Shown here in pieces: positions 14,201 to 48,200 of a DNA stretch of 64,000 nt (positions within the stretch are counted from its first letter, which is position 1; every line of letters begins with the position of its first letter). A program made the translations under genes and the position numbers. The notes under the pieces are model-generated. The model made no database searches and was not told the DNA's origin. It saw only the letters and a list, made by a program, of their open reading frames with translations. The DNA is from Sphaerodactylus townsendi (Eukaryota): contig NC_059426.1 in the NCBI RefSeq assembly GCF_021028975.2, forward strand, positions 66,154,001 to 66,218,000. Direction: 5' to 3'.

Positions 14201-17200
14201 TTTGAGCCGCAATCAATGTGTTAGAATTTCATTTGTCACAGAACTCTTTATCGTTTGGGCTGCGGAGCTGCTTTCTCATGCCCTCTCATCTACTTGTTCA
14301 TCAGGGTAGTAGATAAGACATCAGCTGTTAACATCAGACCCGCCCATCCTTTTTCTATGCAACTGGTTTTGTGCAGTGTTTAAATGCACATCACTGCTGT
14401 AATTCCCTCTAGTTTGAAGCAGCCATTATGTTAGAACCCCGTGATCCATCAGCAGAAGAAGCTCACCATTGCTGATCTTCCCAGTTCTCCTCTCACACTT
14501 GGCAGCCATTTCTGATCCCAGAAAAATTTCTATCGGGATAGCAGAACACATAAGAAGTAATAGTTAAACAGGTTGGGAGGCTGCATTGGGAAGAAGGCAA
14601 AATCATTCCCTTGTCCTCTTTCACCATTAGAGCCCCACTTGTGTGAGAATGTGGAAGGAGTAATTTTGATTGCTTCCTCCTCCACACTGTAGCTATTACT
14701 CCTGTGACCCCAGGGACAAACTTTTTCCAGGGTGGGAAATGGCTCCTGGGTGGGAAATGGGGAGGGAAGAGCCCGAGAACTCAGAGATCCTTGCCTGGAC
14801 TTCACACACTCTTTGCACTGGATCCAAGCCATTGTTTCTACATGGAACACTTCTCTACATCCCTGCACTTATCAGTTTTCATACTTTTTATCTTTGCTTC
14901 CTTCCCTTGCCATTGGTTTGTACCTGGTTCTTCATCGTCTCCTTCTTTAAAGCTATGCTCACATGATTTTTTAAGGTTCGAACTAGCAAAGCAGTAGATT
15001 AATAGCAATATGATTCTCATGCCTGCCTTCCTGGGCAGTAGTGGTGGTTTCTACCACTTAGGATAGGAAGTATTCTCTTTCCTTCTTAGCTGGAATCTCC
15101 TTACACAAGATTTTGTGTTACACTGTAAATGTCATTCTCTGTTGCAGCACAGCCTTGGCAGGGGAACTGCAGTACAGCATCTGTCTCCTGAGCCTGAGTG
15201 ACCGCAGCCTTTCAGACGATCGCCTCAACCACCTTTTGAGTGTGGCACCTCAACAGAGCATAATTCTCTTGGAAGATGTGGATGCTGCCTTCATCAGCCG
15301 AGACCTTGCTGCTGAAAGTGAGCGATGGGATCCTTCCTGTGCTGCTGTGCCAGATGCTCTCTTTTTTTGATGCTGCAGTTTGATGAAGCCTGACTTAAGT
15401 GTTCATTGTACCCGGCATCTTATGGAGACCTCCATATGAAATGCTGCTGTGGTGCAACTTTCTCTTGGCTGGTCACTTCCTCTCAAAGTGAAAGGGAATC
15501 GTGAGAATGGGCTTGAAAAGAAGCTTCAAGGAGGTGGCAGATCTTGCCAGTGCCTCTGTTCTCTGCTACAGTATCATTGCATCCAGGTTCACACTGAGAT
15601 TGCACAGTGGTGGCCAAAATGCTGATACATCTGCAGTGTGAGGCACAGCACATCAGAATTTCCTATAATTCAGCAGATGCCTGGAGTCTGAGACAAACTC
15701 CTTGCTTCATCCAATGGAGGGAGACCCCCTGCAAGAATCCAGGCCTTACCATGTTCTGCCATGGTATATTGGGTGTAGGATCAGGGAGGTAGTTCTCTGT
15801 GCTTTCCTGCTTGTGCTTCCAAGGGGAATGATGTTGTATTATATGTTATGTTTGGCACTGAGCTACTTGCTTCTTCAAAAGTATTCCAGCTGGGCTGTTA
15901 CCTAGAGATCATTGTGTGCCAGGCACAGAGTTCAAAGTGACTACTGATGCTACAGCCTAAAGCAGATCGCAGCCTTTTCCCTTCTGGAAACGTGTGACCC
16001 TAGTCAGGACTTGAACAGGCTTAGTGTTTATTTATTTAACTTGTTTAATTATCTACAATGTTTATGCCCTGCCTTATCTCTGCAAACTCGAGGTGGCTGA
16101 CAAAATAGCAGAAGCTGCAGAAGATAGGTATTACAAGTGTCCCACAAGTTAAAACCAATATAAAAACCCATAGTTAAAGACCCGTACAAAGTGTTAATGC
16201 AGCTGAGACAGTTAACCCTCCACCAAGTTTTACACATTTTCCTGAATACAGCAAATGAAGCCACTTGCCACATTCTAGTAGACCATCTCAGAAGAATGAA
16301 CCTACCGTAGAGAATGCCATGACCAAACTGTTGCCAAGTGGACCATCCAAAGTAAGGATATCATGAGGAGAAAGCTGTCTAAAGATTGCAGCTGGTGTGT
16401 GAGAGTGTTGTCTGTACCTTTGCTGTTAATTCTCCACTTCCCTACCTCTGAGATTTCTTTTTCTCTTATGTTTCTGTTTAGATCCCAATGCATACCAAGG
16501 TATGGGACGCTTGACCTTTAGTGGCCTTCTCAATGCATTGGATGGTGTTGCTTCCTCTGAAGCCAGGGTAGTATTCATGACCACCAACCACGTGGACAGG
16601 TCAGAACTGTTGCCGGGGAAATGGGGTGGGGAGAGGTGGTTCACTTCAGATAACCATTTGCTTGAATAAGGCAATCTGTTCCACTAGTGGAAGACACTTG
16701 CATCAGCAGAACAAAATGTTCTTGCCTCTTTTGGCCCAGTGAGCTCCACAAAATACTGGTCTTAGGGAAAAGGGAATAATGCTCAATAACAACCTGAAAG
16801 GCAAAGTGAGGGTCTACAGTGGGAGGGGAGAATTAGTGTAAATCACCTTGATTTTTACTGGTGCAAAATTACCACAGGGTGTAACCCAAAATAAGCAGAG
16901 GGAAGTTGTCTGGGGCAAAGCTGTGCTTACTGGCAATTCTGTCCTGCTCTGGCAACAAAGCAAATTAAAATCATGCTAGAAGTGGTCTTGCTTGCCACGG
17001 AGAGACTGGAAAATGAAAGTGGAGCTTGAGGAAATACCTTAGTACAAGAAATCTTGCTGTGACAGACATTCACCCCCATTGTGCAGTGGATACCTTATGC
17101 ATAATCGGCCCTCTGCTTAGAAGGAAACTAAATTTGCCACTTGTGGTTTCCTGGAACTATCTCTTTAAGTCATCTTCTCATTCTTTGCAGGCTAGATCCA

Positions 17201-17443
17201 GCTTTGGTTCGCCCTGGCCGGGTAGATCTCAAGCAGTATGTGGGATACTGTTCACAGTGGCAGCTTGTACGTATGTTCCAGAGGTTCTATCCAGAACAGC
17301 AACCAGCTATGGCCCAGCAGTTTGCTGAACAAGCCCCTGTGGTCTCTGATCAGATCAGTGCTGCACAAGTACAAGGCCATTTCATGCAATACAAGGCAGA
17401 TCCAGATGGAGCCATTAAAAACATGCAAGCTCTTGTGTCCTGA
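7930..17443 (+). CDS. BCS1L: Mitochondrial chaperone BCS1 (AAA ATPase), complete CDS join(7930..8249,10938..11077,12373..12567,13615..13678,15148..15317,16482..16599,17191..17443), 419 aa
   Basis: [26 protein letters not shown] start, Walker A GPPGCGKS, Walker [22 protein letters not shown]. Exon sizes 320/140/195/64/170/118/253 sum to 1260 nt with consistent phases. Confidence 0.97.
8358..8498. mobile_element. 141-bp PIF/Harbinger-type MITE
   Basis: TIR-like gctcattccgcac...gtgtggaaggggcc with tta/tca flanks; near-identical to 46710-46850. Confidence 0.75.
8917..9695 (-). mobile_element. CR1 LINE 3' fragment
   Basis: Minus ORFs [18 protein letters not shown]...[11 protein letters not shown] and [14 protein letters not shown]...RTRGHSLK; tail (cataagaa)n on the + strand. 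Confidence 0.92.
10938..11077 (+). CDS. BCS1L: BCS1L coding exon 2
   Basis: tttccag|G TAT CAA...[31 protein letters not shown]; donor gtacaa. Confidence 0.95.
12373..12567 (+). CDS. BCS1L: BCS1L coding exon 3 (GC donor)
   Basis: ttttatag|CC AAA GAA...[13 protein letters not shown]; ends AG|gcaagt. Confidence 0.93.
12655..12782 (-). mobile_element. 5S-derived SINE fragment
   Basis: ggtattccttagaggtctcccatccaaatact is the reverse complement of the 5S-like agtatttggatgggagacc. Confidence 0.55.
13615..13678 (+). CDS. BCS1L: BCS1L coding exon 4 (Walker A)
   Basis: ttctgtag|GT ATT CCC TAT...[20 protein letters not shown]; donor gtgagt. Confidence 0.96.
15148..15317 (+). CDS. BCS1L: BCS1L coding exon 5 (Walker B)
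   Basis: [30 protein letters not shown]...LLEDVDAAF; donor gtgagc. Confidence 0.96.
16482..16599 (+). CDS. BCS1L: BCS1L coding exon 6
   Basis: [39 protein letters not shown]; donor gtcaga. Confidence 0.95.
17191..17443 (+). CDS. BCS1L: BCS1L last coding exon
   Basis: ttctttgcag|G CTA GAT CCA...[12 protein letters not shown]...QALVS TGA. Confidence 0.95.
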
Positions 17444-18385
17444 TCATGGGCAAACACTGAGAAGACTCTATGCAACATTCCTGAGGTGAAGAGTTTTTGC
17501 AGAAGTGACGAGGGTGATGCTGTTTGTCTACAGACCTCAATGAGGTCTTCTTTTTCTAAGGAAAATAAAAGAGTAAACCACCTTCTCCACCACTGTTCCC
17601 AGAACAGGAATAGGGAACAGCCTGAAGGCTAGCAGGCTTCTATCCAATTGGATACTATAACATGGACCCATCCGGAAAAGTGCATATTCACACAAGACGG
17701 TTTGAGCACATCACCTGTGACTTCATGCAGCCACAGAAACTGAAGCTTGTGGGGGAAATGGATGGAATATAACTGTGAGCTCTTTCTGTCTTTATGGACT
17801 TTCAGTTACTGTGTGGTGTGAGTGGTGACAGATTCCACACTAAAACCCAATAACGGTTCAGGCTGTTTGGGTGGAGGAGCAGTTTCAAATTATTTCCCCT
17901 TCCCACTGGAAATCCTGCAAAATAAACCCACAGTTCTGTGGCTTTCTGTATAAAGAGTCCTTGACTCTCATGGATTTGAGACTCATTGGACTGCAGCAGC
18001 AGAGGAAGGCAAAAAGTACCTGCTCCATTCAAAGATCTTGTAGGATCCAGACACTGACAGATAGGAGAAGGTAGATCAGCAAAAGTCCATGCAAGTGAGA
18101 ACCAGGCTGTGGACTACAGTCTGGTACTGCAGATTATATTGTGCTGATTGAATCTGTCAGCCTGAGGGGTGAGATCGAATATATATAGAGAGAGAGGGCA
18201 TGGTAGAAGGTTACAGGGCAAGTGGAATAGATAAGGTTTTATTTGTCCCCCTCCCCTGCACAACATTTACTAATTACTGAGATCTATATAAACCTATAAG
18301 CGGACAAGCCTAGATATCTGACCTTGCCAGATATCTAAGACAACCAGGGAAGAAGAGTTCACAATTTTCATCCTCCAGACACCAG

Positions 18386-18391
18386 AATAAA
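18386..18391 (+). terminator. Candidate BCS1L polyadenylation signal (alternatives at 17564 and 18468)
   Basis: AATAAA followed by a GT/T-rich downstream tract. Confidence 0.45.
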
Positions 18392-19014
18392 GTTGCCTTG
18401 GTAATGAGTGAGTTGGTACTGATTTCTTTTACGAAGGTGCTGTGAGTATGTGAGTGATTAATCCCGAAATAAAACAGCAGCGTAAGATTCTTGGGAAGGC
18501 AGCCATGATGATGAAATTGGTCTAGGTTTGTAATGCATATCTTCCTGAGTAGTACTGAAGCCTAGGGAACAGACTTAGGGAAGGGGAAAGGGGGGATGGA
18601 AGATGTATTGTCGAAGGCTTTCACGGCCGGATTCAACCAGTTGTGGCTGTGGTCTGGTGGACCTTGTTCCTAACATTTGGCCTGCATCTGTGGCTGGCAT
18701 CTTCTGAGATGTATCTCAGAGAAAAGTCTGTTACACACTGTGTCCAGTGAGAAGGGAATGTTTTAGTGGGGTGTAAATTGTCATGTCCCCGGGTAGGGAA
18801 CCAATCAGTAAGTGTTTGGGTGGAACTTGCTATGCAAAAGTGTGATTGATAGTATAGTATTGCAGGTGGGGTTTTTCAGTCCAGAGAGTGAATGCAAATG
18901 TGAATCACTCCCTGACTGAAAACCCCCACCTGCAATACTATCAACTATACTATCAACCACACCTTTGCATAGCAAGTTCCCCACCCGGGGACATGGCAAT
19001 TTATACCTCACGAA

Positions 19015-19539
19015 GGCCGTTTCCGCACGGCCCAAAAACGACGGCCTGGGGGCGGTAAAAACGCCGCCCCCAGGCCACCGTTTGCACAGGTCGTTGCAGC
19101 AGCGCCGACCTGACTGCGCTCCCCCCCCCCCCAGGGCGGCGTCAGGCTGCCCTAAACAACAACCCTTTAAAGGGTTGTTGTTGGGGGGGAAGCGTCTTCC
19201 CGGCAGCGCGGTGCGAACCGCGCCGCCGGGAAGACACTGTCTCCCTTCTCCGCCCCACTCACGATGTCTCCGTTAGGTAAGCCTGCTGGCCGTGGAAGCC
19301 CTGCCCACACTGTCCTCCGACCTCCAGGGGTCGGAGGGGCAGCGATGGCGGACCTCCACGACCAGCAGGCAACCCACGGCGACATCGCGAGTGGGCGGAG
19401 GGAAGAAGCGTCCGATCGCGGAGCCGCCTCTCCTGCGGGGGCCTCTGCTTGGCCTGCTCGCACGCTTGCGTGCGAACGGGCTTGCGCCCCCACGCCGGCA
19501 GAACTCTTGGGGGCGCATGGCGGCCGTGCGGAAACGGCC
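19015..19539. mobile_element. GC-rich PIF/Harbinger-type MITE
   Basis: TIRs ggccgtttccgcacggcc / ggccgtgcggaaacggcc. Inserted at a TAA site, reconstructed from the opposite fold-back arm. Confidence 0.75.
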
Positions 19540-19593
19540 TAAAAAATTCCCTTCTCACTGGACACTGTGTAACAGACTTCTCTTTGTGATACA

Positions 19594-19634
19594 CCTCTGA
19601 AGATGCCAGCCACAGATGCAGGCGAAACGTTAGG
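19594..19634 (+). ncRNA. Minimal type I hammerhead ribozyme motif
   Basis: cct-CTGAAGA-t-gccagc(cacagat)gcaggc-GAAA-c-GTT|agg: conserved core boxes, stem II, palindromic AACGTT stem III and cct/agg stem I. Confidence 0.6.
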
Positions 19635-19929
19635 AACAAGATCCACCAGACCACGGCCACACAGCCCGGAAAACCCACCACAACCAGAAGGATGGAAGCT
19701 TTCCCTTTTCTTTTTCATTCCCATGCTGGTAAAAGCCACAGCTGGGATCTGATCCAGCGAGGCCTGTCTTATGCTCCCAGTTAAAGAACCAAGAGCCTTG
19801 AGAGGATAACTATAATCCAGCAAGGAAGGTGTTAATTTTCTCAACCAGCCATTAGGAGGAGCTCCAAGGTTAGTCATTTGGCAGTCCTTGGAGGGCTGGG
19901 AGAGAAGAATTGTTTGCCTCGTCTTTGTG

Positions 19930-20151
19930 ATGAGTTTTGTGAGCCTCGGGATCCTTCGATTGACCAGATGGAGATCGCTACAACCCAAATGTGCTGGGAT
20001 CTGTTTCCAGCAGAGGAAAGCCACTGCTGGCTCTACAGCGGCTGGCGCGCCAAGTCTCAAGGATTTCCAAGAACTCCCTGGTTTCGGGTTTGGGGGCTTC
20101 GTTTACTGGTCCCTGCTCCGGGGTTATATCCTTCATTCCCACGAGTTACAG
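19930..20151 (+). CDS. CYP27A1: CYP27A exon 1
   Basis: [16 protein letters not shown]...KDFQELPG...[11 protein letters not shown]|gtattc. Confidence 0.85.
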
Positions 20152-23100
20152 GTATTCTGGATTTGAGAAAAGGGGGGAGTGGGGACGAGAAGCCTGCTTG
20201 AGAAATAGCTCATGAGCTCCTGGAGGTCAGATCCCCGCAAGCAGTGCTGGCAGAACCCCAAATGGAGAACCACCTAATTCTTTTTACAGGAGGAAAGGCT
20301 TTCCGCTCTAAGATTAACCCTGACGCAACGCCCCCCCCCCCATCCTGTTGTAAAGTGAATCAGCCCGTTAAGCTTAACGCTTGCTTGTGACATTGGGCAG
20401 GCAGAGAAAAAGTTGTAGAGGTGTTCAGCCTGCATTCCTCACTGATCTTAAAGGTTACCCCAGGGTATGTTTATGGGAAAGCGTGGGATTTGTGTTTCTG
20501 TACCTTCCGTAACTATTTGCTGTGAAGTTAAGGTTGGCTGTGAGTTTCATTTTGAATTGGGAGCAGCACACAAGTTTCGAAGTGTCTACAGATTCAAACA
20601 CCTACAGTCATCCTGAAAGGAGGTGCCTGTGAGTTATGGCTGTAGAGCCGAATGTGGATCAGTACAGATTCAGAGACAAACATGGTTCTGTTTAGAAAAG
20701 GGTAGGTGGGATGTTATAATAAACGGGATTGTTAACCTAAGCGTCAGCAGGGTTAAATGGCATGTTTTTAGGTATGCAAAGAGGAGTTCTTACTGTCGCT
20801 CTGAATTTTGATGTAGTTTGGCTCTTTAATCATAAAAGTTTGCTGCAGCTGTAAATGGATTTACTTTACACGTGGGTTCCAAAATGTTACAGCAAAATTA
20901 GAAGTAGATCTCGTTTTAGAAATTGCTACCTGAAGCTGTACATCCACCTTGAGGCTCTCCTCAGCCATCTGTGGCTGAAGAATTGCAACATGCTCAGGTG
21001 TTAGTATTTCAGCAGCAGCAGTGTCACTTATTCTAGAAACCTTGTTCTCTCTATCCTGGCTAAGTCACACAACTTTCAAGTTTCACTCAAAAGTAGCAAT
21101 CTGATGCACTGGGAGGACAGCCTGGTTCAAGGTCCATTAAGACAGGATTTCTTTAAACTTGGGGAGACCTCCCTCCTGGTTTGCAAAAATATATATATTT
21201 AAAGTTTTTATGATTTAAACTCCTCCCCCCCCCCCCAACAATAATGTTATTGATACTTGTGCGGATTACTTTCCTGTGCAGCCCAGGCGGCAGCTCACGG
21301 GAGTTCTGCCTCTGACGTGGCTCAGGGGGATCCTGCTGGCTTAAAAGGGCCCTGTCAAGTGCCACAAAAAATAAAAAAGTCCAGAAATTCCCAGACTGCA
21401 GAAAAGCCACGTGAAAAGCAATCGATAACAAAGTCAATTATGCTGAAGAAGACATCCACCCTGAATAAATCTTCAGCATTCTTCTGAGTTGGGTACCCAG
21501 TCCCCCTGTGAGTAGCAAAACTATCTGGCACACCAATTTGATTGGCACATGCTGTGCTTCTTCAAGTATCTCAATCCATTTCTCTCTCAGTTTCAGGATA
21601 TCTTCCTGAAGTTGATCAGTGTTGCCTCTTTCTATTTCTAATGTGGCATCACAAGATTCTATTACTTAACTGACCTCATGGATCATTGTGAGAACTTAAA
21701 TCCAAATGACTGACATTAGTACACATTCATAAGGATCCAAGTATTTTTGATGCCCCATAGATCAGACTTATTCTCTGCTGACAAAGTAGTAACGTCACTT
21801 GGCTCTGCCACACCATTTCTATCACTATCCAAATGATGAACCATTGGTCTTACACAATACATGCTCACTGCCCACCCATGTTATGCAATGAGACAGGAAG
21901 GTGTTCTTTCAGTATCTCCCGCTGCTTGGGGTTTCAACTTGAAGACACTGAACATTTCCTGTATGATTCCATAGAATGTTATAGCTTCACTGCAGGCTTC
22001 AGTACAACTGGTGATATAAGCAGCACATGTGGGTAATGTGAAATATCTAAACAACCACTATTGCACTATTCAAACTGGCCAAAATCCAAAACAATTAAGT
22101 AAACAATATGGGTTATTTTAATGTAGAAAAGTGCAGTGTCAACATAGGAGAACACCACACAGAACAAAACAAAGCAAGCACTTAAGAGAGAATCCTCTAT
22201 TCCTATCAACAATACCTAGCATTACTTTATTCCTATATAGTTGTATATTGACTATGAAGTTCCAAACATCAAGGTAGAGGATAAATAATGCAGGCTCACA
22301 GTCCAAATTTATAGCTTTCTCACAACAGTCTCTTTTCTTGGCAGTCAATGCCTATGTGATGACTTCCAACTGAGCATGCTTTGCTCAGTAATCTGAAGAG
22401 GTGAGCCAGAGTGGAGGTTACACAGGTTAACTCCTTGATATTTACTTTCCTAAATTGAACTTGGCCCCCAAATATATTGTTGGCTGATGAAGATTCTGTG
22501 AAACATCTATATAAGATGCGGAACACGTCCTGTTGATTCAGTTGCCAATTGGATGGGAATCTTGAACTGGAGAGATTCCAAGTCATTAATCTTATCGCAG
22601 GACAGTTGGAAGCCATCACATTCTGATTATTTCTCTTTCCAGCGTTTATCATGAGTAATTTCAAAGATTTTAGATGAATAGGAGGGGGTCAAATATTACA
22701 TCACCAGTTTATTGAAATTTCTCCTCCATGTTCACTCAGTTTAAATTTACAGTGTCATTTTTTTACTTTCCCTGTTTGCAAATATAAGCTGGATCTTGAG
22801 CTGCGCTCATTTGTAAAAGGATATGCTCTAAAAATGAAACTGAGTGAAATGGTTGCTCCAGCATAATCTTTTCAAACTGAAGCTGCATTCAAATGGTGAA
22901 CTTAACTGTGGTAAAGTTGAAATGCATACACATGTGTCTTTTTCATTGAAGTTTAGAATCTTGGTTACAAGGTAGAGGAGTGAACTCATTCAGGTTTACA
23001 CAGGCATTCATAAGAACTGAAGTTCATAGGCACATGACAAAAGCCCTGTGCTCAAGGCAAAAGCCGGTTACCAATAACCATCCAAAAGCTTCTTCAGTGT

Positions 23101-32100: not shown

Positions 32101-35100
32101 TATAGTACAGCTGGTTTTCTTAGGGAATAACATTACTTTCTAAATGATGGATTCCTCTGAGCAGGATGGACCAAAACTTCGGCTGTATGTTCAAGGTATT
32201 CCTGACTTCTGACTACTAGAAACTGAACCAGGAACAATAGAACTATTCAATAGTTTTCTTGTTTCTCTCTGAAGTAGTGTTGGCCACTAATCTGTGCTAC
32301 TGTTCTGAGAGAGACCATTGGGCTATTTCTAACAATGCCTCTATTGATATGTTTACTGGTAACTTCAGGATTAGTTCTACAGGCTGTTGGAAATCCACCC
32401 TCAAGCATATTAAAAAATAGCAGAGCACCAGTAACTTCGCATTCCATTCCACGTGTGTGGAATATATTTTTCGGTGAGATGGATGAGGACCAAGCAATGG
32501 TCAAAAGTGGAATGTCCCTTGACAAAGCTGATTTGGGTGGGCTCAAGTAAAGGTGATGCCCAAACTACAAGTTTTTCGAGAAGATGCAGGTCATACACTT
32601 TGCCAACAATTGATAAGAAGCTGATAGGCCTGTAGTTAGATGGAATCTGAGCAGGGGAATATCTGCCATGGGGAGTCAAATGTCCCTAGGCGCCCCCATG
32701 TGGTTATGTGGTGGGGAGGGCGCAAAAAATTCAGGCTCGTTTGTGGGTTTTTTGTATTTTTTAGTATATTTCAGTTTTTGGCCTTCAGGGGCACAGTTTT
32801 TAGGCTAGCAGCACCAAAATTTCAGGGATTTTTCGGGAGACTCCCCTGATGCAAACTAATAGGAGATGGGGGCTACACCTTTGAGGGTCCATAACTTTTA
32901 ACTCCCTGAACCAAAATTCACCAAACCTGGGTGGTATTATCAGGAGAGTCTCCTAAAGATACCCTGAAATTTTGGTGCTGCTAGCTTAACAATTGCACCC
33001 CTGGGGACCCCAGATTCTCCCTTTAAGGTGGATTTAAAAGAAGAATAGAGGGAGAAAGCATGGTGTCGAAGAAGGTGCTGGGAAAGTGATTCCACCATGC
33101 ATCAGCAGTAATAACAGAGTTAATAGAGTTGAAGTTAGATTGGGGGACATCAAACACTGGATGCCAGAATAATTTGGGGTATCTAGCTTTTGTAGCTTGA
33201 ATTAATGTGTTCCAGTTTTTATGGTAGCTGTGGCGTTTTTTTGGCAGTTACCATCATCCGAAATTGCTTCCGGCCAAGGAAGTACCCTTTCACGGGTTTC
33301 CTGTGTTGGATTATAATTACATTGTTGATATAGATGGTGAAGATGCACTTTCAAGGAATACCAGTCCTGGTCAAACCAGGAATCATGAGAAAAATAGGGA
33401 GCGAGATGAGAGGGTCTAGTTTTGAGCTGAATGCAGCTAACTATGGCAGTAGTTAGCTCCTCATAATGGCAGATGGAAATTCTGGGAGTATTTGCCTCAG
33501 CAGCAGCCTGGAAGAGACTATCCAAGGCTCTTAGGGATAGATGTCATGGCTCCAGTTTCACAATAGAAAGCATCCCTTTTCCAAATGTTACTAGTAAGTC
33601 TGGTCTGTGTTATACATACTATTTTAGTTTTCCAGGTAATGTTGAAGTACTATTCTTAACTATTCGGGAGTGTACTTTATACCTCCTTTTCAAAGAAAAA
33701 ATGCAGAAACATTCAGTTTCCATTTCTTTCCAGTAAATTAGGATTCAGGGATTAGCAGTAAACATCCTGCAGTTGGAAGTTTAAAGGCTGCAGATTATGC
33801 AAATGTGCATACAATTAACCATTTCTCCAATCTAATTCCAATTGCAAAATGTATAATTTGTGGAAGAATTAGTGTGATAGAGAGAAGGGACAGAACTGTG
33901 TATTTGCTGTATTTTCTTGCATAAATCTTTCTTGCGTAAGATCTTTTCTACAGGATCAAGTTTCTGAAGGAACCTGCTTTCTGCTTTCAGAAGAAGCAAT
34001 ATTGCACAGTGCTGATTGGCTGTGTACGGCGTGGAACAACTTTCCTCTCCTTTGTTAGAGCATGTTTCAAAGAATAAACACAAGAGAGGGAAAGGCTTTT
34101 TTTATTTCTGGCTTTCTGGTTTCCGCATGGCCGTCGAGGCGCCTCCACGCCGGCAAGAATTCTGCTGGCGTGGAGACGGAGGCCGTTCGCATGCAAGCAT
34201 GCGGGCGGCCTCCGGAGAGGCCGAGTAGACGATTTTGCAGGCTGCCCGCGATGGAACCTCTTCTTCCTCCCACTCACGCCTTTGTCCCGCCGAATTACCG
34301 TTGCCTGCTGGCCGTCGAAGCCCCGCTTCACGCTGCCCCCTCTGACCTCCAGGGGTCGGAGGGACAGCGCGGGCGAACTTCACGGCCAGCAACGGCCGTA
34401 TGACAGCTGTGACAAGGTGAGTGGGACGAGAAAAAAAACAGCCGCATTCCCGCCCGCGTGCTGTCTCGCACCGCGCGGCCGGGAACACGCTGTCGGGGAA
34501 AAAACAACCCTTTAAAGGCAGTTACGCCAGGGCGGCCTGACGCCTGCCCTGGGGGAGGGGAGCTATGCCAGTGGTCGGTAAAGCTGCTGCTTAGCTAGCG
34601 AAGAAGCGCCGCATGTGCGAAGTAGCTTCCCCTGGGGACGGTGTTTATCCCGTCCCCAGGGCGCCATTAAAGGGCCGTGTGGAAACGGCCTAAGCTATCC
34701 TGTAATCAAATATCCACTTAAGTACTTTGAAATTGAGAGGGAAAATCATGTGGTTAGCCTACCTGAAGCATAAGGAGAGAGACAACAATTAGTTTTCACT
34801 TTGGGAGCAGGTATATGTATGAGTGCAGGAGCAAAGATGGTGGAAAACACAGTTTGTGTCACAGCAACATTCCTCATACATGCTGTTATGTTGAAGTACA
34901 GCAGTGTACAGCCAAAGCCATGCAAAATGTCTAACACTTGATCAGTGAAGACCATACACAGAAACTTTATTTATTTATTTATTTATTATCGTATTTATAT
35001 ACCGCCCCATCCCCTGAGGGCTCTAGGCGGTGAACAACAAAATGATGTTACATAAACTTGATTGTTTCTGAACACTGAGTAGACTCTGCTATCCTGTTTT

Positions 35101-38309: not shown

Positions 38310-39211
38310 TTACCACCTGCCTCGTCTAGATACAGTAAGAGTCTTTTGCCTTTCATTGCTGGGCACACTGCGCTTGGCTTTCGGGGGAGTAAAGCTGAAC
38401 ATTATGTCGTAAGTCACCAGGTAGCCGCTGTTGTACATGTATAACTTTTGATCATTGGGATTGTAGTTCACACTTTGTGCTACATCTGCGAGTTTCTCCA
38501 TGGTAATTTCTAAATTGGTTTCTTTGCTTGTTTCGGTGTTGTACATATAAAATATTAATTCCTTATGTGCACTCACTCGCTTGAGGGCATACAGTATCCC
38601 ACAGATCATGAACGTGTTGGTTACTTCAGGCTTGTTCAAGGAAGTTTCCCAAGTCTTTGTTACCTCCATAGTCTTAGGATCTAATTTCCCAATGATTATC
38701 TTCCCCTTACTTTTCTCTGTGGAATACGTTATCCACAGGCCCTTCTCATCACCAGCAAAATCAAAGTCCTGCCAACCGATACCATTGTAGGAGAACCAGT
38801 TGTTGAAAACAGCAAGGCCCAGTTTCTGGCGTTTAATATGATTGTTTGACAGCTTCTGTTTGCACAGGTTCCTGGAATTGTAGCAGTTGTAATACAAGGT
38901 GCCGTTGTACAAGACCATCCCACTCCCCTGTCCACAGTTGATAAAGTTCCAGGTGAGCCCAATCTGTTGGGAAAGGGTTCTTTCCACTTGATTTTTGTAT
39001 AACAGTAGGTCATTATAAGTGTTGTAAACGCGATAGGTCTCCATTATACGTTCATCAGTGTTGAGTGGAGCAACCCAATATAAGCCTGGATTTTTGTTGT
39101 TCAAAGCAAAGTCCTTGCCCCAACCACCAGATTTGTAACTGAACCCTCGCCAGTTGAGTTTCACTATGAATGGCTTGCTAACATTGAGCAAGATTTTGTC
39201 ATTACAGGTTC
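38310..39211 (-). CDS. Olfactomedin-like exon 5 (OLF domain)
   Basis: tccttgtag|GA ACC TGT AAT GAC...; continuous with the 293-aa ORF. Confidence 0.95.
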
Positions 39212-42200
39212 CTACAAGGAAAAAAGGAAACAGAAAGAGAATGATATACCTGCTGCTTTGATGCTGCTTCTATTGAGCACATAACTCCATTTTCTGTGTC
39301 AAAGATTTGTCATTTTATCTTTCCTTTTAGAAAAGGTTTATATCCTACCAGTCTACATTTGGATCAGCCCATACTTATTTGTTCTCAGTATACCTTTTCT
39401 GCATAACACTACCAAACTTCTTCTCCTTGTATTACATTTCCTTTCTGGAGGTCTTAACTATAGAACTGTGCAGCCATGGAAGTGAAAATAGCACATTTAA
39501 TAGGAACTCCTTCCAGTACTGACAGTATGATAGGGAACTGGTTAGGAACTGGTATGATTGGGAACTGACCCAGTGAAGGAAAAGTAAGAAGAACAGGCCT
39601 AGGATGAAGACAAGGCTTTGATAACCAGAAATGTTTTGTGAGCCTGGTGTCCTTACATCTATACCAGGGGTAGGGAACCTGCGGCTCTCCAGATGTTCAG
39701 GAACTACAATTCCCATCAGCCTCTGTCAGCATGGCCAATTGGCCATGCTGGTAGGGGCTGATGGGAATTGTAGTTCCTGAACATCTGGAGAGCCGCAGGT
39801 TCCCAACCCCTGATCTATACAGTGAGGATATTGTATGTGTTGCTGATGAAGAATTCATGTTAGTGAGTGAAATGCTTTCAACATCAATGGCATGGAATGT
39901 GCATAGAAATCTATGACCATTTATGTATGCACTACTTTCCCTGTGGCTGTTTGTTTCACAGTGTGGTTTCCCACCATTTTTGATTGCACTGGGATTCTTC
40001 TCCTGCAAAATGTCCCTAGCTGAGTGGATCTGCCATTTTGCCCACCTGCCACTTCCCTGTTTTTTTCTGTGCAACCTTCATTCGGGGAGGTTGCCTTCCA
40101 CTTTTCCCCCCTGCCATCTTTGGTCTAACATTACTTAATTGAACCATGTCAATTTCACTGGGTCTATCCTGCAGCAATAGACCTTCATTAAAAAAAACCC
40201 TCTTCTGATTGTTCTGAAATGGTGGCCCAAAGATTGGGAGGAACTTCTGTGTGGGAAGGTGAGGAGTAGCAAGAAAACCTGAAGAAATCCTGACACATAT
40301 GGATTTCCTTTGCTTTTCCTGTGAAGGGAGAGAGATCTGAGAGGGTTGTGAATTCTGAAGGGGGTGGGGACATGTGCATAACTGAGAATCCAACCCTTAA
40401 TGAATGCACTCTCAATGTGAAAGTGACCACAAATGCGTAAATGGCTTATGAAAAATTTCAATTCCAACCCATACCAACAAATCCCTACCACCAATAGCAA
40501 TTGGTGCCAATACTTACCAATCGCAGGTCGTGTGAGACCAGCGGAAGGTAGTCCAAAATTGGGATTTCCAGCAGCTTCTTCACAATCAGCCAGTTGTTTA
40601 CGGATGGAGTCAATTTCCCTTCGTGTTGCCAGCACATTGTTTTCATCAAAAGTTTCCAGCTGCCACACCATGCTGGAGATATTGTTGATCTATAACATAT
40701 GGCACATATATTATAGAGCAACCGCAGCAGATCATAGAAACTTCAGTTTCTAGCTGCCAGAGGTTATTGGGAGTGGAGCTGAGATGCAGATTTAAGCTGT
40801 CACCTTCTGAGAACCAATGTCGCCTTCTTGATTTTCACTTGATTTATGCTCGAGGTAATTCTATGCTAAGTGACAATATACCCCCAGAGATCTTTCTAGT
40901 AGCATGGGAAATGCTATTAACGAGGGGCGGGTGTTTGGTGGGGTGGAGAAATAAAGACTGTTTCAACATGATTACACACTCAAAGGAAGTTGACTCAGAA
41001 TGGGAAAACAGTGGAGGAAAAATGTAGGAAAAACGTTTTTGGAACCCAATGAAGGGAAAACATGTCAAATTAAAAGAAAACATTGCATTTGGAGGCAAGA
41101 TACACTATATACAACTCATGCAGAAAAGGCCTTCCTTAGTTTGCTGATTTTCCTGACAGCTTTTTTCCTTTAACTTTTTGTTAAAAGGCATAAGGCACAT
41201 AGAACTTACGAGAATTGAAAAAGTGATAACCAAGGACAAAAAATCCCCACATGTAATACCTTTTATAAGAACAAATCAAAACATCACAGGGCAGCATGAT
41301 TTTTTTGAGTTTTAATTACTCTTCACCAGGTTGGATGTTACAGAAAGAAAAGTGTGTTTTGCGTCATTTTACAAGAGACTCCAACCACTCTCAAACACAC
41401 ATTTNNNNNNNNNNNNNNNNNNNNNNNNNNNNNNNNNNNNNNNNNNNNNNNNNNNNNNNNNNNNNNNNNNNNNNNNNNNNNNNNNNNNNNNNNNNNNNNN
41501 NNNNNNNNNNNNNNNNNNNNNNNNNNNNNNNNNNNNNNNNNNNNNNNNNNNNNNNNNNNNNNNNNNNNNNNNNNNNNNNNNNNNNNNNNCGCCCCATCCC
41601 CAAAGGAGAACCTGAAAATGAGCAAACTGTTTTGTGTAATTTTGCAAGAGACATTGCCCACAGACAGTTTACATATTTTCAAGTTCTCCAGAATTCTTCA
41701 TCAGCCATGAGAGTATGACTTAAGTCTGATAATTAGTTCCTCAGAACTCAACTCTATTAAACTGTCCAGTGTCTTTTTGGGAAAGAGAACTGTTGTCTTG
41801 GCCACCATTTGGACAGAACATAAAACAGCTTCAGGACTTTGTCTCAGCTTATTACCCGCTTTGAGAAAGCAAAAACACATAAGGTAAAGTTCAGTAAGCT
41901 CAAATCTATCCAAATTCATGTCCCAATACAAAAAGGTTACAATTCAGATTCAGTTCCAATTAATAACAAAATTACAAATCAATAAAATGTCTATTTTTTA
42001 CACTGTTCATTTCAAATGCAAGCTAAATTAAAGTAAAAGTTCATTCTAGACTTCTCATTTTTCTCTGTGTGGAGGGGTAGGGGGTGGGGGGCAGGACAGA
42101 CAGCAGTCACAGTTGTCTGAGGGAGATCAGCATCATTCCTTGGTAACCTGTGTCTATGTGTCATGTAATGCTTAGAGTGCAGAATTAGGCTCAGACTCAC

Positions 42201-45200
42201 TTGGACCAATCACTTTCTCAGCCTAACCTACCTTAGAGGTTTACTGTGATGATAAAATAGAGAGAGGGAGAAACGTGTATGCCTCTTGACGCTCTTAGGA
42301 GGAAGAGTGGAATAAAATGGTAGATAGAGTGATAGAATGCATACAAATCTAGAAGGTACCAGTTAAAACACTGGTAAATCGAGTGTAGGATCGAGAAGAA
42401 ATAGATGAAACTGAATGAATGCTTAAAAACCACCGTCTTTCCAGGAGTATCAGTACAGACAACATGAGTTTGAATGAATGGCAGTTAGCTGCAGATCTAC
42501 AGATCAATCATTCCTAGTGCACAAAGTTAAGAAAAACAGGCCATTTCTGATGGAAACTGTGTGTGTATATAAATGTAGCTTGTATTCTGTAAGTACAAAC
42601 ATATTTCCTGGATGTCAATGGATATTTTCACCTAGTCTGAAGACTTTTGATGTGTGGAGAATCTCCCTCCCTTTACTTCCTGTACTTATTTAGTTTGCCC
42701 TACTTTCCTCTTGGACTCAAGTTCATTACACATCTTTTCCTGGATGGTACCACTTCAAGCATGGAAGTTCCAGTATCCCACCATTACAAGAAAAGAAAAG
42801 AAAAAGCTTTCTTGCATGTAGAAAACTAACAGGCCAGAGAGAAGAACTCTAAGCTGGCCTTCACACTGTCATTTCTTTATTGAAAATTGTATTTTCTTTT
42901 GCCATCAAGTCACAATTGACTTATGGCGACCCCTTGTGGGATTTTACAGGCACCAGACATTCAGAGGTGGTTTGGCATTGCCTGCCTCCGCATCATGACT
43001 CTGGTATTCCTTGGAGGTCTCCCATCCAAATACTACCTAGGACTGACCCTACTTAGCTTCTGAGATCTGAGAAGATCAGGCTAGCTGGGGTATCCAGTAT
43101 TAATTTCATAATAACACTTCCATATAAGGAACAGGCACCCCCATGATGGCCCGTGTAAATGCCTGGTTTAATAAACCACCTTGAGCCGGTTGGGGTTCAA
43201 GTCTGCCCTCCCTAACCCATAAAATGACAAATGCCACCACAAAACAACTTTAAAATTGTCATTTTAACAGAACAGCAGACAAGGAAGGAAGGAAACAAAA
43301 ATGCAAATAATGGGGATGTGAGAATCTAATGCCCAGGAGCCACCTGTGCCTAAACAACTGGATCTGGTGATTGGTACCCAGGACATTAAAGAGGGTAGGA
43401 TTATCCCCAGATTATCCCCAGATTGGCACCCAGGACATTAAAGAGGGTAGGATTATCCCCAAGATTGACTGTGGTGGGTTTTCTGGTCTGTGTGTCTGTG
43501 GTCTGGTGGGTTTTTCTCCTCTAACACATTGGTTTCCAATCTGGGATATGTGTACCCTCAGGGATAAATGGCAGAGAGTTAGAGGGTACGAGGGAGAAAT
43601 TATTTAATGGTNNNNNNNNNNNNNNNNNNNNNNNNNNNNNNNNNNNNNNNNNNNNNNNNNNNNNNNNNNNNNNNNNNNNNNNNNNNNNNNNNNNNNNNNN
43701 NNNNNNNNNNNNNNNNNNNNNNNNNNNNNNNNNNNNNNNNNNNNNNNNNNNNNNNNNNNNNNNNNNNNNNNNNNNNNNNNNNNNNNNNNNNNNNNNNNNN
43801 NNNNNNNNNNNNNNNNNNNNNNNNNNNNNNNNNNNNNNNNNNAAGCCTGTGGTTGCTTTCAGGTTGGGACTTATTGCTGTTTGCGCTTCTCCTCCACCCT
43901 GCCAGTTGCAGGGCAACAATTGCTTGCTGTCTCCCTGGCTTGGCTCTTTCCTGATGCCCGCTGGTCCTGTGAACTGGGGGTGGGTGGGGACCATAATCCC
44001 TGGGGGTGGGTGAAATCTGAATCTGATTTCAGCCCCAAGGCTGCTGAGAAGTCTTGGGACCAGTGTTGAGGGGGACAGGAAGGCTGTCCACATTGCAAAC
44101 ACAAATGTTTCTTTCTTCAACTGTCCCTGCCCCAATCCTAGGATGCTGAGGTGGGCAGCCCGTTGGCCTGTGGAAGCATTTATTCTGGAAAGCCTGGTAG
44201 ACCCTGGAAATTTTGATGGTCTCTAAGGTGGTGCTGGGCTGAGAATTCTGTGCCAGGTGTGAGGGTTTGTTTGTTTGTTTGTTTATTCGTTTTATAGAGG
44301 GCTCTGATGACATGGGAAGTGCCTGGAGATTTGGGGTTGAAACCTGGGAGGGCTAATTTTGGGGAGGAAAAGGGCCTCCACAGGGTACAATGCCATTGGA
44401 GCCACCCTCCCAAGCAGCTATTTTCTCCAAGGGGGGTGATCTATGTCATGTGGAGAATCGTTGTAGTTCTGGGAGCTGTCCAGGCTCCACCTGGAGGCTG
44501 GAAACCATAACTCTCATAGTCAGAGAACTACATTTCCTGGAGCTTCTGGGGGAGAGGGAGATGGTGAAGCCAGCTCTTGCATGTTGTCAGAAGAAAGTGG
44601 CACAGAGGTTCTGAAATGGGCAGTGCCAGGCCTTTTGTGAGGGCATGACTGCCCTCTCCTGGGCCGGTTCAACCTCTTTGCTGAGACCCCAGTTCTGGCT
44701 TCTTGAGTGAGGTTTCTGCCTTCCTGTTTGAAGTAGTCAGAAAAACACAGCCAGATGCTGAAACTGGTGTTGCAATGCAAGGGAGAGAGGAGGGTGTGCA
44801 CCTCAAATCCTCTTCATGTGGCTGCAGGTTCCAGAGGCACATTTAGAAAGGAGATGCCATTGAAGGAGGGAGAGGAGAATTGGGGGTGGCAGGGAGAAAG
44901 AGGGACCAGATGCTGGTGAAGCAAGGAAGGTGGAGCAGACACAAAAAGGGGGAAAGAAGTGGGGATCTGAGAGTGATATTTGGGGGGTTGATGGGGCAGG
45001 TGCCAAAGAAAGAACTGAGAAAGATGAGTGAGTGTCTCCCTCTTGCTGGGAACAAATCTTCTAGACCAGTTGTTACCAACCTGGGATATGTGGAACCCCA
45101 GAGGTATGCGCCAGAGTGTTTGGGGGTGCATGAAAAATTACGTAATGGGTTTGCTAATATGGGAGTACAGTTTTAGGGAACTGGGTTGCCAAGGGGTATG

Positions 45201-48200
45201 AGAGTGAAAAAAAGGTTGGGAACCACTGTCCTAACGTTTTACCCACATCTGTGGCCGGCATCTTCAGTCATGGCAAGATGTGTTTCTCTCCATGGCACAA
45301 TGAATCACATCTGACTATAACATATCTCTGAAGTTGCCAGCCATAGATGCAGGTGAAATGTTAGGAGCAAAAACTACCAGACTATGGCCACAAAGCCTGA
45401 AAAATCCACACCAGCCAGTTGATTCTGGTCATGAAAGCCTTTGACTATCCCCAGTATTAATTCAAGGCCTCCAGTCCCTCATTGGTAGGGGTATGGATGG
45501 AGTAGTCAGGTGCCCATATGAATCATATAGCAACAAGCCAGGTTCATGTACATCATGCCTTAATCATGATTGAATGTAATATTTGAATTCAGGCTTATTT
45601 TCACCTACCTCACCGATCAGCCGATCAATTCCCCCATCGGTTGCATTCAGGATGATACTCAGGTCTTTGCCAATGTTTTCCAACTCTGCAATCGTACCTT
45701 GGACTCTCAGATAGTCTGCATTATCCTTAAAGCCTTTCCCTTCATACTGATTTATTATTTTAGTCAGGTTATCCAGTTTGTTCTGAAATTCTATGATTCT
45801 AAAATGAATTTTTGAAACCTAGAGAAAAATAAGAAACATTTGCAGTGTTCCCTTGTCACAAGACATGACAAAAATCCCTTTCATCAACCGTCCTTTCAGA
45901 ACCATGCACTGAGATTAAGAACCAGAGTGGTCTGTGCATACAAAATAGGGCTTGAATTTTAACACGCTAGGTGTGGATCCAAGTGACAGTTCAGCAGTTC
46001 AACTCCTTGCTAGTTTTCTCTATGTAGGAATCTTCTGTGGGAATTCTCAGGCAGCATCCCCACGGACATTTTTATGTGACTTGGCTTCCACTTTTCTGCC
46101 GTGTGTGTTTGTGGAGTGGGGGGGCGGGAACATCACACAATATTGCTATCTAAAAGTCATGCTTTCAGGTTTTCCTATGTTTTGCTGTGATCTTTTTGTA
46201 AAATGCTGTTGAAGCTATGAATGCTGGGAATTTCACAATGAACCTGCTCAGCTGCCAAACAGCTGCCAGACAAGCTGATCAAAAGAAGACCCACAGCTGA
46301 TTAGGTGACTAGCTGGGAGTCATGCTCTGATCTACCACATTGCCCTTAGAAAAAAGCTACACAGTGAAGATGGAAATCAGAAGGGAGATGAGAAATTGAT
46401 CATTTCTTCTACCTCTCCACACACACCCTACTTGGTGTTCTGAGACTGGAAAGACCATAGAGTGGAACCACAAACTCCTTGGACATTCCAATCACAAAGC
46501 AGTTTATCTGGTTCCTGTGGCTATCTTTCCTCTCTGAGTCCTGTCATTGTTGGAATTTCCAGCCTTGCTTTGCATGCAGCAGCAGCAGCAGCAAGAGCAG
46601 CATGAAATTCTGGGAAGCTGCATGAACATTCTAAAGGTGACAGTTAAATTCCATTGGTAGTGTTCTGTTCCCTCACACACACTCTGAAACTTCCTGACTG
46701 ACTAACTAAGGCTCATTCCGCACATGCAGAATAATGCACTTTCAAACTGCTTTCAGTGCTCTTTGAAGCTGTGCGGAATAGCAAAATCCACTTGCAAACA
46801 GTTGTGAAAGTGGTTTGAAAACGCATTATTTTGCGTGTGCGGAAGGGGCCTAAGAGAAAAGATGTGCTCTGTGCTTTGTATAGTGTTGTAAACCAAATGA
46901 TATAGAAATGTGCTCTGACTAGACTAAAAGATATTCGCAACCAAACCGTAACAAACCATTAGCCCTGCATGTAACTATTATTATGTGTTACTGTGTATAT
47001 AATGTATATATATCTCTCAGGTTGAGTAAAGTTCTGCTTATGTTTTCATGAACTTCTGAGGTAAAAAGGCTGGTCTTTTGACAGATAACTATTCTAATTT
47101 GACGTGCCACACAATCCACATTTCCGGCCGCAACTTTGCTTGACAGGATTATATATACCAAATATACCTGTTGCCCTTCTGTCATTCCCGTCCCAGAGTA
47201 CTGATACTATTCCTAGAGGCTGTCATTCCACTCTGGGGCCTGTGATTCAAATTGTGGAACACTTCTACTACTCCCAGTGACCATCATTCCACTCTGGAAG
47301 TTGTCATTTTGGTCCCAGAACACTTCTGCTACTCCAAGAAGTTCTCATTCTGTTCTGGGAGCTGTCATTCCAGTCCAAGAGCGCTTATGCTACTTGCAGG
47401 GGTTATCATTCCAGACAATCTATCTGGGCCCAGATATATGGGCTCAGAGCAATCTATCTGGGCCCAGAGATCCCCATTATAAATCCATTCTGCATATTCA
47501 TTATGTGCTGTAATGTATTTCAGTGGAAACCATGTAGTAGGAATTCCTGGCTCCCATTATATCCAATTGGCATTCCAGCATCTCCCCCCCTTTCCCCCCT
47601 CAATGGGCAGTCATTCATTTTAATACATCCCTCTTTGTTAAATTGGTTGGTGTGGATTCTCTAGTTTGGCATTTGAAGTTTTAGGCTTGCCACATAACCC
47701 CATGGTTCTGTTGGACTTTTGGGGGGTTCTGTTTACATTCAGTTTGCTTTTTGCCAGTGGTTGGTTCACTTGATCTTGTGTTTTTGGCTATTCTTTTTTT
47801 TTTTGCACTGGAGAAAGTATGCAATTCCCCTCCCCTCATAGGAAATAATGGAGGATGGCTGGGACACCTTATTCAAGGGCCAATAGAAAAACCTGACTTT
47901 CCCACAGTAGTGAACTTGGGGCACATAACCTGTACAGAAATGGTGTTTGCTTCCACCTTTGCTCTGCTTTTAGTTGTTCGTTAAGCAAATTTCATAATAT
48001 GTCTCTTTTGTTTTCTCTTCCACAGGGAACTCAGCCCAAGTAAGTACTGACCCTTTCTTACAGCTCAGAGAAGGTGAGCATGTCACAATGTTGCAAACTC
48101 ATGTAATACACTTTTGCGTGTGTGCGTGTGTGCGTGTGTGTGTGTGTGTTGTGCCATCAAGTCGCTTCTAACTCCTGGCAGCCCTATGAATTAATATCCT

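What the first reader, a model, noticed from the sequence alone, without database searches (positions are those of the whole stretch)
19594..19634. Core-intact hammerhead ribozyme between BCS1L and the CYP27A start, in sense orientation
Seen: cct CTGAAGA t gccagc-cacagat-gcaggc GAAA c GTT|agg keeps both catalytic boxes, an NUH triplet (GUU), stem II, stem I and a palindromic AACGTT stem III. The three other copies in the window have core mutations: 18669-18709 has CAGA/CAAA, ~45230-45268 has AAAA and ~45326-45365 has CTGAAGT. Established: Penelope-like retroelement termini carry minimal hammerheads that often cleave as dimers. Inference: the site is ~1.2 kb past the BCS1L polyA signal and ~300 nt before the CYP27A ATG. 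It could cut BCS1L read-through RNA or a long CYP27A 5' leader, acting as a co-opted RNA insulator. It may also simply be the least-decayed copy.
Basis: partly seen in the sequence, partly recalled or inferred. Interest (0 to 1): 0.7.

Follow-up and report, generated by a model that had tools for sequence, protein, structure and literature searches.

The report
Penelope transposon stub with hammerhead motif
The hammerhead ribozyme motif is real, but it is the tail end of a truncated Penelope-type jumping gene whose intact core stands in about 14,700 near-identical copies in this genome, and this copy is likely an inert relic rather than a switch between its two neighbouring genes.

Summary
The motif at 19594-19634 is as described: a minimal type I hammerhead with no stem III loop, so it would need a second copy to fold. 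It is the 3' end of a 5'-truncated Penelope/Poseidon-type insertion (18604-19687, 9-bp target duplication). The 'mutated copy' at 18669-18709 is that insertion's inverted arm, and a 525-bp MITE sits between the two. An intact core is common: 14,707 exact 35-mers genome-wide, about 39% of 37,630 copies with the same stem II. Core CpGs decay as fast as flank CpGs, and this copy's divergence is ordinary. In three partly read RNA-seq runs BCS1L reads stop near 18400 and depth is zero over 19725-19998. Read-through RNA is predicted to lock the motif into a hairpin with its antisense arm. The Anolis relative cleaves only with the element's protein (PMC11167929). Co-option as an RNA insulator is not supported. 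A long leader of the P450 gene stays untested, because that gene is nearly silent in these runs. The scan has noted the same family at other places in this genome.

The parts
19594..19634 (+). Minimal type I hammerhead motif (stem I 3 bp, CUGAAGA, extra U, stem II, GAAA, loop-less palindromic stem III, GUU triplet; predicted cut 19631/19632)
   Evidence: features compared with PMC4209133
19603..19687 (+). First 85 nt of the element's ORF (ATG overlaps A9 / extra U / G10.1), ending at the short, tail-less 3' end
   Evidence: cut site lies 26 nt after the start codon, as stated for PAc in PMC11167929
18897..19687 (+). Right (direct) arm of the Penelope-type insertion: last codons of the ORF, pseudo-LTR and ORF start, interrupted by the MITE
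   Evidence: the same sequence follows GIY-YIG- and RT-coding DNA in other genomic copies
18604..18896 (-). Left (inverted) arm of the same insertion, with the about 33-nt tail at 18604 and a core-mutated hammerhead at 18669-18709
   Evidence: (arms 18642-18741 / 19562-19661, 90% complementary)
18594..18602 (+). Left copy of a 9-bp target-site duplication (GGATGGAAG)
   Evidence: junction print
19690..19698 (+). Right copy of the 9-bp target-site duplication
   Evidence: junction print
19015..19539 (.). 525-bp CpG-rich MITE with 18-19-bp terminal inverted repeats and a 3-bp target duplication (GAA/TAA here), inserted later into the right arm; Harbinger-like by recall
   Evidence: 25 of 30 copies, this one included in the 30, have an exact 3-bp duplication
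17132..18400 (+). BCS1L last coding frame (stop 17441-43) and 3' UTR; distal AATAAA at 18386
   Evidence: RNA depth
19930..20151 (+).
   Evidence: open frame ending at a GT; downstream frames; no hit for this exon itself

Best explanation
The hammerhead motif is the 3' end of one 5'-truncated, head-to-head insertion of a very abundant Penelope/Poseidon-type retrotransposon, and this copy is likely an inert passenger that does not cut BCS1L or P450 transcripts. Shown: two arms inside one 9-bp target duplication, a later MITE in the right arm, and linkage of the same sequence to RT and GIY-YIG coding DNA elsewhere. Inferred: the element protein nicked the site and copied the RNA from its two internal start points (+85 for the right arm, about +118 with tail for the left). 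The ribozyme served the parent element, where it overlaps the start codon. Here the core survives because its two CpGs have not yet decayed, as in about a third of sister copies. Cleavage would need a sense-strand partner for stem III and probably the element protein. Any BCS1L read-through RNA is predicted to bury the motif in a duplex of about 100 bp with the left arm.
For: Copy number: 14,707 exact core-intact 35-mers against 37,630 with the same stem II and free core positions, about 39% (patterns not perfectly nested). In this GUU subfamily 3,090 of 12,329 (25%) keep the 3' core exactly. In 73 sister copies from 54 of 60 fetched loci, 38 keep all 13 core and stem III letters; changes at core CpG letters 52 of 288, at flank CpG letters 51 of 284. 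Both core CpGs are kept in 30 of 89 copies, both flank CpGs in 29 of 89, all four in 14 of 89; non-CpG substitutions here number 3, against 2-7 (median 4) in the 19 copies long enough to score. Linked coding DNA: GIY-YIG E 8e-4 (below cut-off), RVT_1 E 3.5e-7 (above cut-off) and 1.1e-4 (below). Architecture: hammerhead-region hits on both strands in 32 of 60 loci; inverted truncated copy and one-ended tail are typical of PLE insertions (PMC8557442). RNA: depth 0 over 19725-19998 in 3 of 3 runs and at most 0.68 over 18355-18491, against up to 7.7 per mate direction in the BCS1L 3' UTR. Fold of 18600-19700: motif paired to the left arm with mean probability 0.90, hammerhead stems 0.0. PAc's ribozyme shows no cleavage without protein, and the minimal template needs the first 172 nt of the ORF (PMC11167929); this copy has 85. 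A single Schistosoma min-HHR showed no cleavage (PMC4209133).
Against: This arm is among the best preserved. Over 19594-19685 it equals the family majority, which only 1 of 63 sister copies does. Over 19545-19685 it has 3 substitutions, tied for fewest (2 of 19; median 6), while the same-age left arm has 6 differences over 19594-19659. Non-CpG core letters vary less among copies than non-core letters (13 of 721 against 223 of 3660; 4 of 190 against 64 of 1695). I read that as constraint on the source elements, but did not separate it from base composition or subfamily structure. The RNA runs are few, partly read (about 6, 19 and 24 in 100), of unknown tissue, and would miss nascent read-through; the P450 gene is nearly silent in them. 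Folding is a prediction at equilibrium. No cleavage assay was run.
Confidence: 0.86

Rival explanations
1. Co-opted ribozyme: the motif cuts BCS1L read-through RNA or a long P450 5' leader and so insulates the two genes, dimerising with another transcript or helped in trans by the element protein.
For: Sense orientation between two plus-strand genes. No difference from the family majority over 19585-19687; 1 of 63 sister copies is as clean over 19594-19685. In RNAs that start at 19014 or 19540 and end at 19700, stem II is predicted to form (P 0.81-0.88). Family RNA is plentiful as a possible partner (pooled depth of several hundred per mate direction over the motif). Domesticated hammerheads exist in amniotes (RECK, DTNB, Clec2; PMC6155905 passages).
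Against: Preservation is not core-specific, and the non-CpG divergence is ordinary. Reads fade about 1.2 kb upstream of the motif and none lie in 19725-19998. Read-through RNA is predicted to pair with the antisense arm, stem I has P of about 0.02 or less in every context folded, and in a 19540-19930 leader stem II drops to about 0.08. The copy has 85 of the 172 ORF nt that PAc needs as template. No place where many reads begin or end lies at 19631/32 in pooled family reads (weak, because of library type).
Confidence: 0.04
2. The composite insertion matters locally but not as a ribozyme. The CpG-rich MITE and the Penelope pseudo-LTR would supply promoter or CpG-island sequence to the P450 gene, and low methylation next to the MITE would spare the right arm's CpGs as a side effect.
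For: CpG observed/expected is 0.85-0.96 over 19001-19700 against 0.25 for the window; the MITE ends 390 nt before the putative ATG. All four CpGs of the right arm are kept, while the three alignable ones in the left arm are changed. PLE pseudo-LTRs are reported to hold promoters (PMC6765202 passage).
Against: The 29 other MITE copies are as CpG-rich (median 0.91, range 0.77-1.01), so this is a family trait and not a local one. All four CpGs are kept in 14 of 89 sister copies anyway. No methylation or start-site data.
Confidence: 0.06
3. The fold-back, not the catalytic core, is the working part: read-through RNA would form a long duplex that slows polymerase, is edited or is degraded.
For: Arms 90% complementary over 100 nt plus further paired segments; predicted to dominate the fold.
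Against: Hits on both strands occur at 32 of 60 sampled loci, so such hairpins are ordinary by-products. The arms differ by about 10%, and no locus-specific RNA was seen there.
Confidence: 0.04

Closest known systems
PAc, Poseidon element of Anolis carolinensis, and its hammerhead (Frangieh et al. 2024, PMC11167929; main text read in full, supplement 1 seen as text, figures not seen)
   Same: ORF starts at stem II and the cut lies 26 nt after the start codon. Insertions end at two points, with or without a 30-40-nt tail; the tailed end here is about +118 against 111-118 in PAc. The sequence after the cut resembles the PAc RNA printed in supplement 1 (about two-thirds identical over 55 nt, compared by eye). 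Linked RT and C-terminal GIY-YIG.
   Different: A different species and subfamily, with GUU at the cut. The sister subfamily in this genome has GUC (72 of the first 100 listed, by my count) and flanks closer to PAc. This copy is truncated, has no intact ORF and is split by a MITE. Clade placement by tree was not done.
Minimal hammerheads (min-HHR) of metazoan Penelope-like elements (Cervera and De la Pena 2014, PMC4209133; parts 1-2 of 4 read)
   Same: Both catalytic boxes, an extra nucleotide between 9 and 10.1, G10.1-C11.1, palindromic 15.2-16.2 without loop 3; mostly single motifs from truncated copies, some as close pairs on opposite strands.
   Different: Helix I is 3 bp and helix II is 5 bp with a mismatch, shorter than the 4-5 and 7-8 bp given for the Schistosoma motifs; activity untested here.
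Domesticated amniote hammerheads: RECK, CTCL, DTNB introns; Clec2 3' UTR (PMC6155905, passages)
   Same: A hammerhead core near host genes, in the sense orientation.
   Different: Those are described as conserved across distant species and inside host transcripts. This one is one of tens of thousands of repeat copies, lies outside the RNA seen here, and has no monomer stem III.

Membership tests
Minimal type I hammerhead of PLEs | CUGANGA and GAAA boxes with an NUH triplet | tested here: met
   19597-19603, 19624-27, GUU 19629-31
Minimal type I hammerhead of PLEs | [quoted passage not shown] | tested here: met
   U19604; G19605-C19623 (features)
Minimal type I hammerhead of PLEs | Palindromic 15.2-16.2 and no stable monomer stem III (dimer type) | tested here: met
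   ACGU 19627-30; self-duplex only -1.7 kcal/mol, and absent from the predicted lowest-energy dimer
Minimal type I hammerhead of PLEs | Lies in the pseudo-LTR of a PLE | tested here: met
   follows GIY-YIG-coding DNA in sister copies
Minimal type I hammerhead of PLEs | Self-cleavage at the NUH site | not testable with these tools
   no assay; no pile-up of read ends at 19631/32 in pooled reads, which is weak evidence
Rfam hammerhead families | Match to a curated covariance model | tested here: not met
   no hammerhead hit at E<=1 on the window or E<=10 on 19560-19700
Endonuclease-bearing Penelope-like elements (Penelope/Poseidon) | RT followed by a C-terminal GIY-YIG domain in the family's ORF | tested here: met
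   in other copies, not this one: RVT_1 in L056 (above cut-off) and L049 (below), GIY-YIG in L039 (below); no full-length ORF was recovered
Endonuclease-bearing Penelope-like elements (Penelope/Poseidon) | 5' truncation, adjacent inverted copy, 30-40-nt tail at one end | tested here: met
   arms 18604-18896 (-) and 18897-19687 (+), tail only at 18604, one 9-bp duplication (description)
Endonuclease-bearing Penelope-like elements (Penelope/Poseidon) | ORF start at stem II, cut 26 nt after the start codon (as in PAc) | tested here: met
Endonuclease-bearing Penelope-like elements (Penelope/Poseidon) | Phylogenetic placement of the RT in the Poseidon clade rather than Neptune | not tested
   no tree built; assignment rests on the likeness to PAc
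Domesticated (co-opted) hammerheads | Core better conserved than the flanking element sequence at this locus | tested here: not met
   no difference from the majority in core or flank over 19585-19687; flank CpGs kept too
Domesticated (co-opted) hammerheads | Lies inside a host transcript | tested here: inconclusive
   depth 0 over 19725-19998 and at most 0.68 over 18355-18491 in 3 of 3 runs, but the P450 gene is nearly silent there and nascent RNA is not sampled
Domesticated (co-opted) hammerheads | Conserved at the orthologous site in distant species | tested here: inconclusive
   only organism B, about 1% different; its contigs reach 24 and 26 letters into the insertion and break before the core

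The most novel reading that the evidence does not exclude
This copy is a young domesticated ribozyme. A P450 transcript starting in or just after the CpG-rich MITE would leave the antisense arm behind, carry the hammerhead in its leader, and be decapped by cleavage only when Penelope RNA or Penelope protein is abundant. That would couple a sterol-hydroxylase-type gene to transposon activity.
Probability: 0.03. Interest if true: 0.7.

Novelty: new member of a known kind. Interest (0 to 1): 0.1.

Why it matters
As it stands it matters little: it is one more truncated copy of a known lizard-type Penelope family with a known ribozyme. The useful result is the baseline. With about 14,700 core-intact copies in 1.81 Gb (one per about 120 kb), an intact hammerhead near a gene is expected by chance in this genome, so a claim of co-option needs locus-specific evidence. 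If the leader model held, it would be a case of a host gene controlled in trans by a transposon's protein-assisted ribozyme.

Tried and rejected
Rfam scans gave no hammerhead hit; the miRNA-family hits there fall on hairpins and lie below gathering scores. Four pairs of motifs about 3 kb apart were fetched as candidate full-length elements; they proved to be independent short insertions with no element ORF between them. No full-length ORF was recovered from 20 loci picked on the endonuclease end. A DNA search with 19585-19687, meant to count perfect copies, returned nothing because common words are skipped; I sampled 60 loci from the start of the list instead, leaving out one tandem cluster of five matches and merging close neighbours. 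Those loci were picked on 26 exact flank letters, which favours young copies and inflates arm asymmetry. No RNA holder was listed for the stretch; three RNA runs with the same species label were laid instead. The core allele in organism B could not be read because its contigs break in the repeat. Local low methylation as the reason for CpG retention is not shown: all 30 MITE copies examined are CpG-rich. Lunse et al. (dimer cleavage of PLE hammerheads) was not held; I saw it only as cited in PMC6765202. A rank order of GUU against GUC cleavage was not found in the passages read, so I make no claim on it from a paper. The GenBank supplement of PMC11167929, which may hold the PAc sequence, could not be read, so no alignment to PAc was computed. 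I make no claim that this family is absent from print.

Full report
1. Observation. The motif is present as written. Pairing was checked base by base: stem I 19594-96/19632-34 (3 bp, not extendable), CUGAAGA 19597-19603, an extra U at 19604, stem II of five G-C pairs around an A.A mismatch, GAAA 19624-27, then C-G-U-U with the predicted cut at 19631/19632. The A15.1-U16.1 pair would close only two bases, so stem III cannot form in one molecule. The self-duplex of ACGU is worth -1.7 kcal/mol and does not appear in the predicted lowest-energy dimer. Rfam has no matching model at E<=1 on the window or E<=10 locally. The features match those listed for minimal hammerheads of Penelope-like elements in PMC4209133 (parts 1-2 of 4 read).

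2. What it sits in. Self-comparison shows that 18604-18896 is the reverse complement of 18897-19687 once a 525-bp insert is set aside (90% over the hammerhead region). The pair is flanked by GGATGGAAG at 18594-18602 and 19690-19698, so both arms are one insertion. The insert, 19015-19539, has 18-19-bp terminal inverted repeats and belongs to a dispersed family in which 25 of 30 copies show an exact 3-bp target duplication; 'Harbinger-like MITE' is my recalled label. In sister copies the arm sequence continues upstream into DNA coding for a GIY-YIG endonuclease and a reverse transcriptase: Pfam GIY-YIG E 8e-4 (below cut-off), RVT_1 E 3.5e-7 (above) and 1.1e-4 (below). The left arm ends with the about 33-nt tail; the right arm ends without it, 85 nt after the ATG at 19603. 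Truncation, an adjacent inverted copy and a one-ended tail are the stated hallmarks of PLE insertions (PMC8557442, passages). The ATG at stem II with the cut 26 nt later is what PMC11167929 reports for PAc of Anolis (main text).

3. Is an intact core special? No. The exact core-intact 35-mer occurs 7,317 + 7,390 times, control 0. With the core positions free and stem II fixed there are 37,630, so about 39% are intact (the patterns are not perfectly nested). For this GUU subfamily, 3,090 of 12,329 keep the 3' core. In 73 copies from 54 of 60 fetched loci, 38 keep all 13 core and stem III letters, and CpG letters change at the same rate in core (52 of 288) and flank (51 of 284); G12 is changed in 9 of 71. 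In a set picked on the endonuclease end instead, 5 of 22 are intact. Against my reading: this arm matches the majority over 19594-19685, which only 1 of 63 sisters does; its 3 substitutions over 19545-19685 tie for the fewest of 19 (median 6); and its same-age left arm has 6 differences over 19594-19659. Split by class the excess disappears: 3 non-CpG substitutions against 2-7 (median 4, n=19), and all four CpGs kept, as in 14 of 89 copies, two of them outside the ribozyme. The arm also lacks 2 nt upstream relative to the left arm. Non-CpG core letters do vary less across copies than non-core letters (13 of 721 against 223 of 3660; 4 of 190 against 64 of 1695). Two subfamilies share the hammerhead while their flanks are about 80% alike. 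I infer constraint on the source elements, where the motif also overlaps the start codon, and not on inserted copies; composition and subfamily effects were not fully removed.

4. Neighbours and transcription. BCS1L is confirmed on the plus strand with its stop at 17441-43. Three RNA-seq runs with the same species label, read in part (about 6, 19 and 24 in 100), give up to 7.7 depth per mate direction over the BCS1L 3' UTR. Depth is at most 0.68 over 18355-18491, 0 over 19725-19998 in all three, and at most 0.41 over 19999-20400. The several-hundred-fold depth on the motif is pooled from other copies: 83-91% of laid reads run on into unlike sequence. No pile-up of read ends lies at the cut site, which these libraries could easily miss. 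So mature BCS1L RNA ends about 1.2 kb before the motif in these samples; nascent read-through and a tissue-specific P450 leader are untested. Contigs of organism B, about 1% different, reach 24 and 26 letters into the two ends of the insertion. That suggests a shared insertion but falls short of the tool's 31-letter rule and does not reach the core.

5. How it most likely works. In the parent element the hammerhead lies at the pseudo-LTR/ORF junction. For PAc, cleavage was seen only with the element protein, was not needed for insertion in vitro, and left no read ends in RNA-seq; the minimal template was the first 172 nt of the ORF. A single Schistosoma min-HHR did not cleave, and dimers cleaved weakly. 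This copy has 85 nt of ORF, and no intact sense partner was found in the window. In RNA read through from BCS1L, folding predicts pairing of the motif to its own antisense arm (mean P 0.90; hammerhead stems 0.0). In RNAs starting after the left arm stem II can form (P 0.81-0.88 to 19700, about 0.08 to 19930), but stem I stays at about 0.02 or less. Shown: anatomy, copy numbers, decay pattern, RNA depth. Inferred: insertion route, inactivity, hairpin sequestration. I put the relic reading at 0.86 and co-option of the ribozyme at about 0.04.

6. Comparison and novelty. It works like, and by anatomy belongs with, the minimal hammerheads of Penelope/Poseidon elements; cleavage and tree placement were not tested. 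It fails or leaves open the marks of domesticated hammerheads such as RECK or Clec2 (PMC6155905, passages). Earlier notes of this scan on other windows of this genome reached the same family assignment (looked up after my reading was formed; unchecked AI notes, not support). None lies near this locus. Verdict: new member of a known kind, interest 0.1.

Noticed in passing
window 19015-19539 and L118-L146: The MITE family keeps CpG at observed/expected 0.77-1.01 (median 0.91) in all 29 other copies although they are only 84-90% identical to this one and their flanks are mostly CpG-poor; the copies could act as portable CpG islands (top hits only). A diverged relative lies at 34119-34691 inside the P450 gene, and fragments at 49154-49271 and 59235-59346.
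   Followed up: partly
G000-wide; L031-L034: Two Penelope subfamilies share the hammerhead but differ at position 17 (GUC or GUU) and have about 80% alike flanks. In the GUU form the palindrome extends to AACGUU (-3.5 against -1.7 kcal/mol), which could mispair core bases A14 and U17 in a dimer (inference).
   Followed up: partly
window 45229-45440: A second head-to-head Penelope stub with two core-mutated hammerheads; a further fragment at 43465-43525 on the minus strand.
   Followed up: partly
window 38310-39269 (-): A 319-codon open frame with a full olfactomedin domain (Pfam OLF, E 1e-70), downstream of and opposite to the P450 gene.
   Followed up: no
window 17443-19930: BCS1L and the P450 gene are only about 2.5 kb apart with no coding gene seen between; by recall other genes separate BCS1L from CYP27A1 in human, so this may be a paralogue or a rearranged order.
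   Followed up: no
G000:C1:4702504-4702974: A tandem run of five matches to the GUU-subfamily pattern spaced 91-109 bases apart on one strand; such an array could supply in-cis dimer partners, unlike the locus studied here.
   Followed up: no
window 42990-43113 (-) and 39692-39785: A 5S rRNA-like stretch below the Rfam gathering score (likely a 5S-derived repeat) and a near-perfect hairpin repeat.
   Followed up: no
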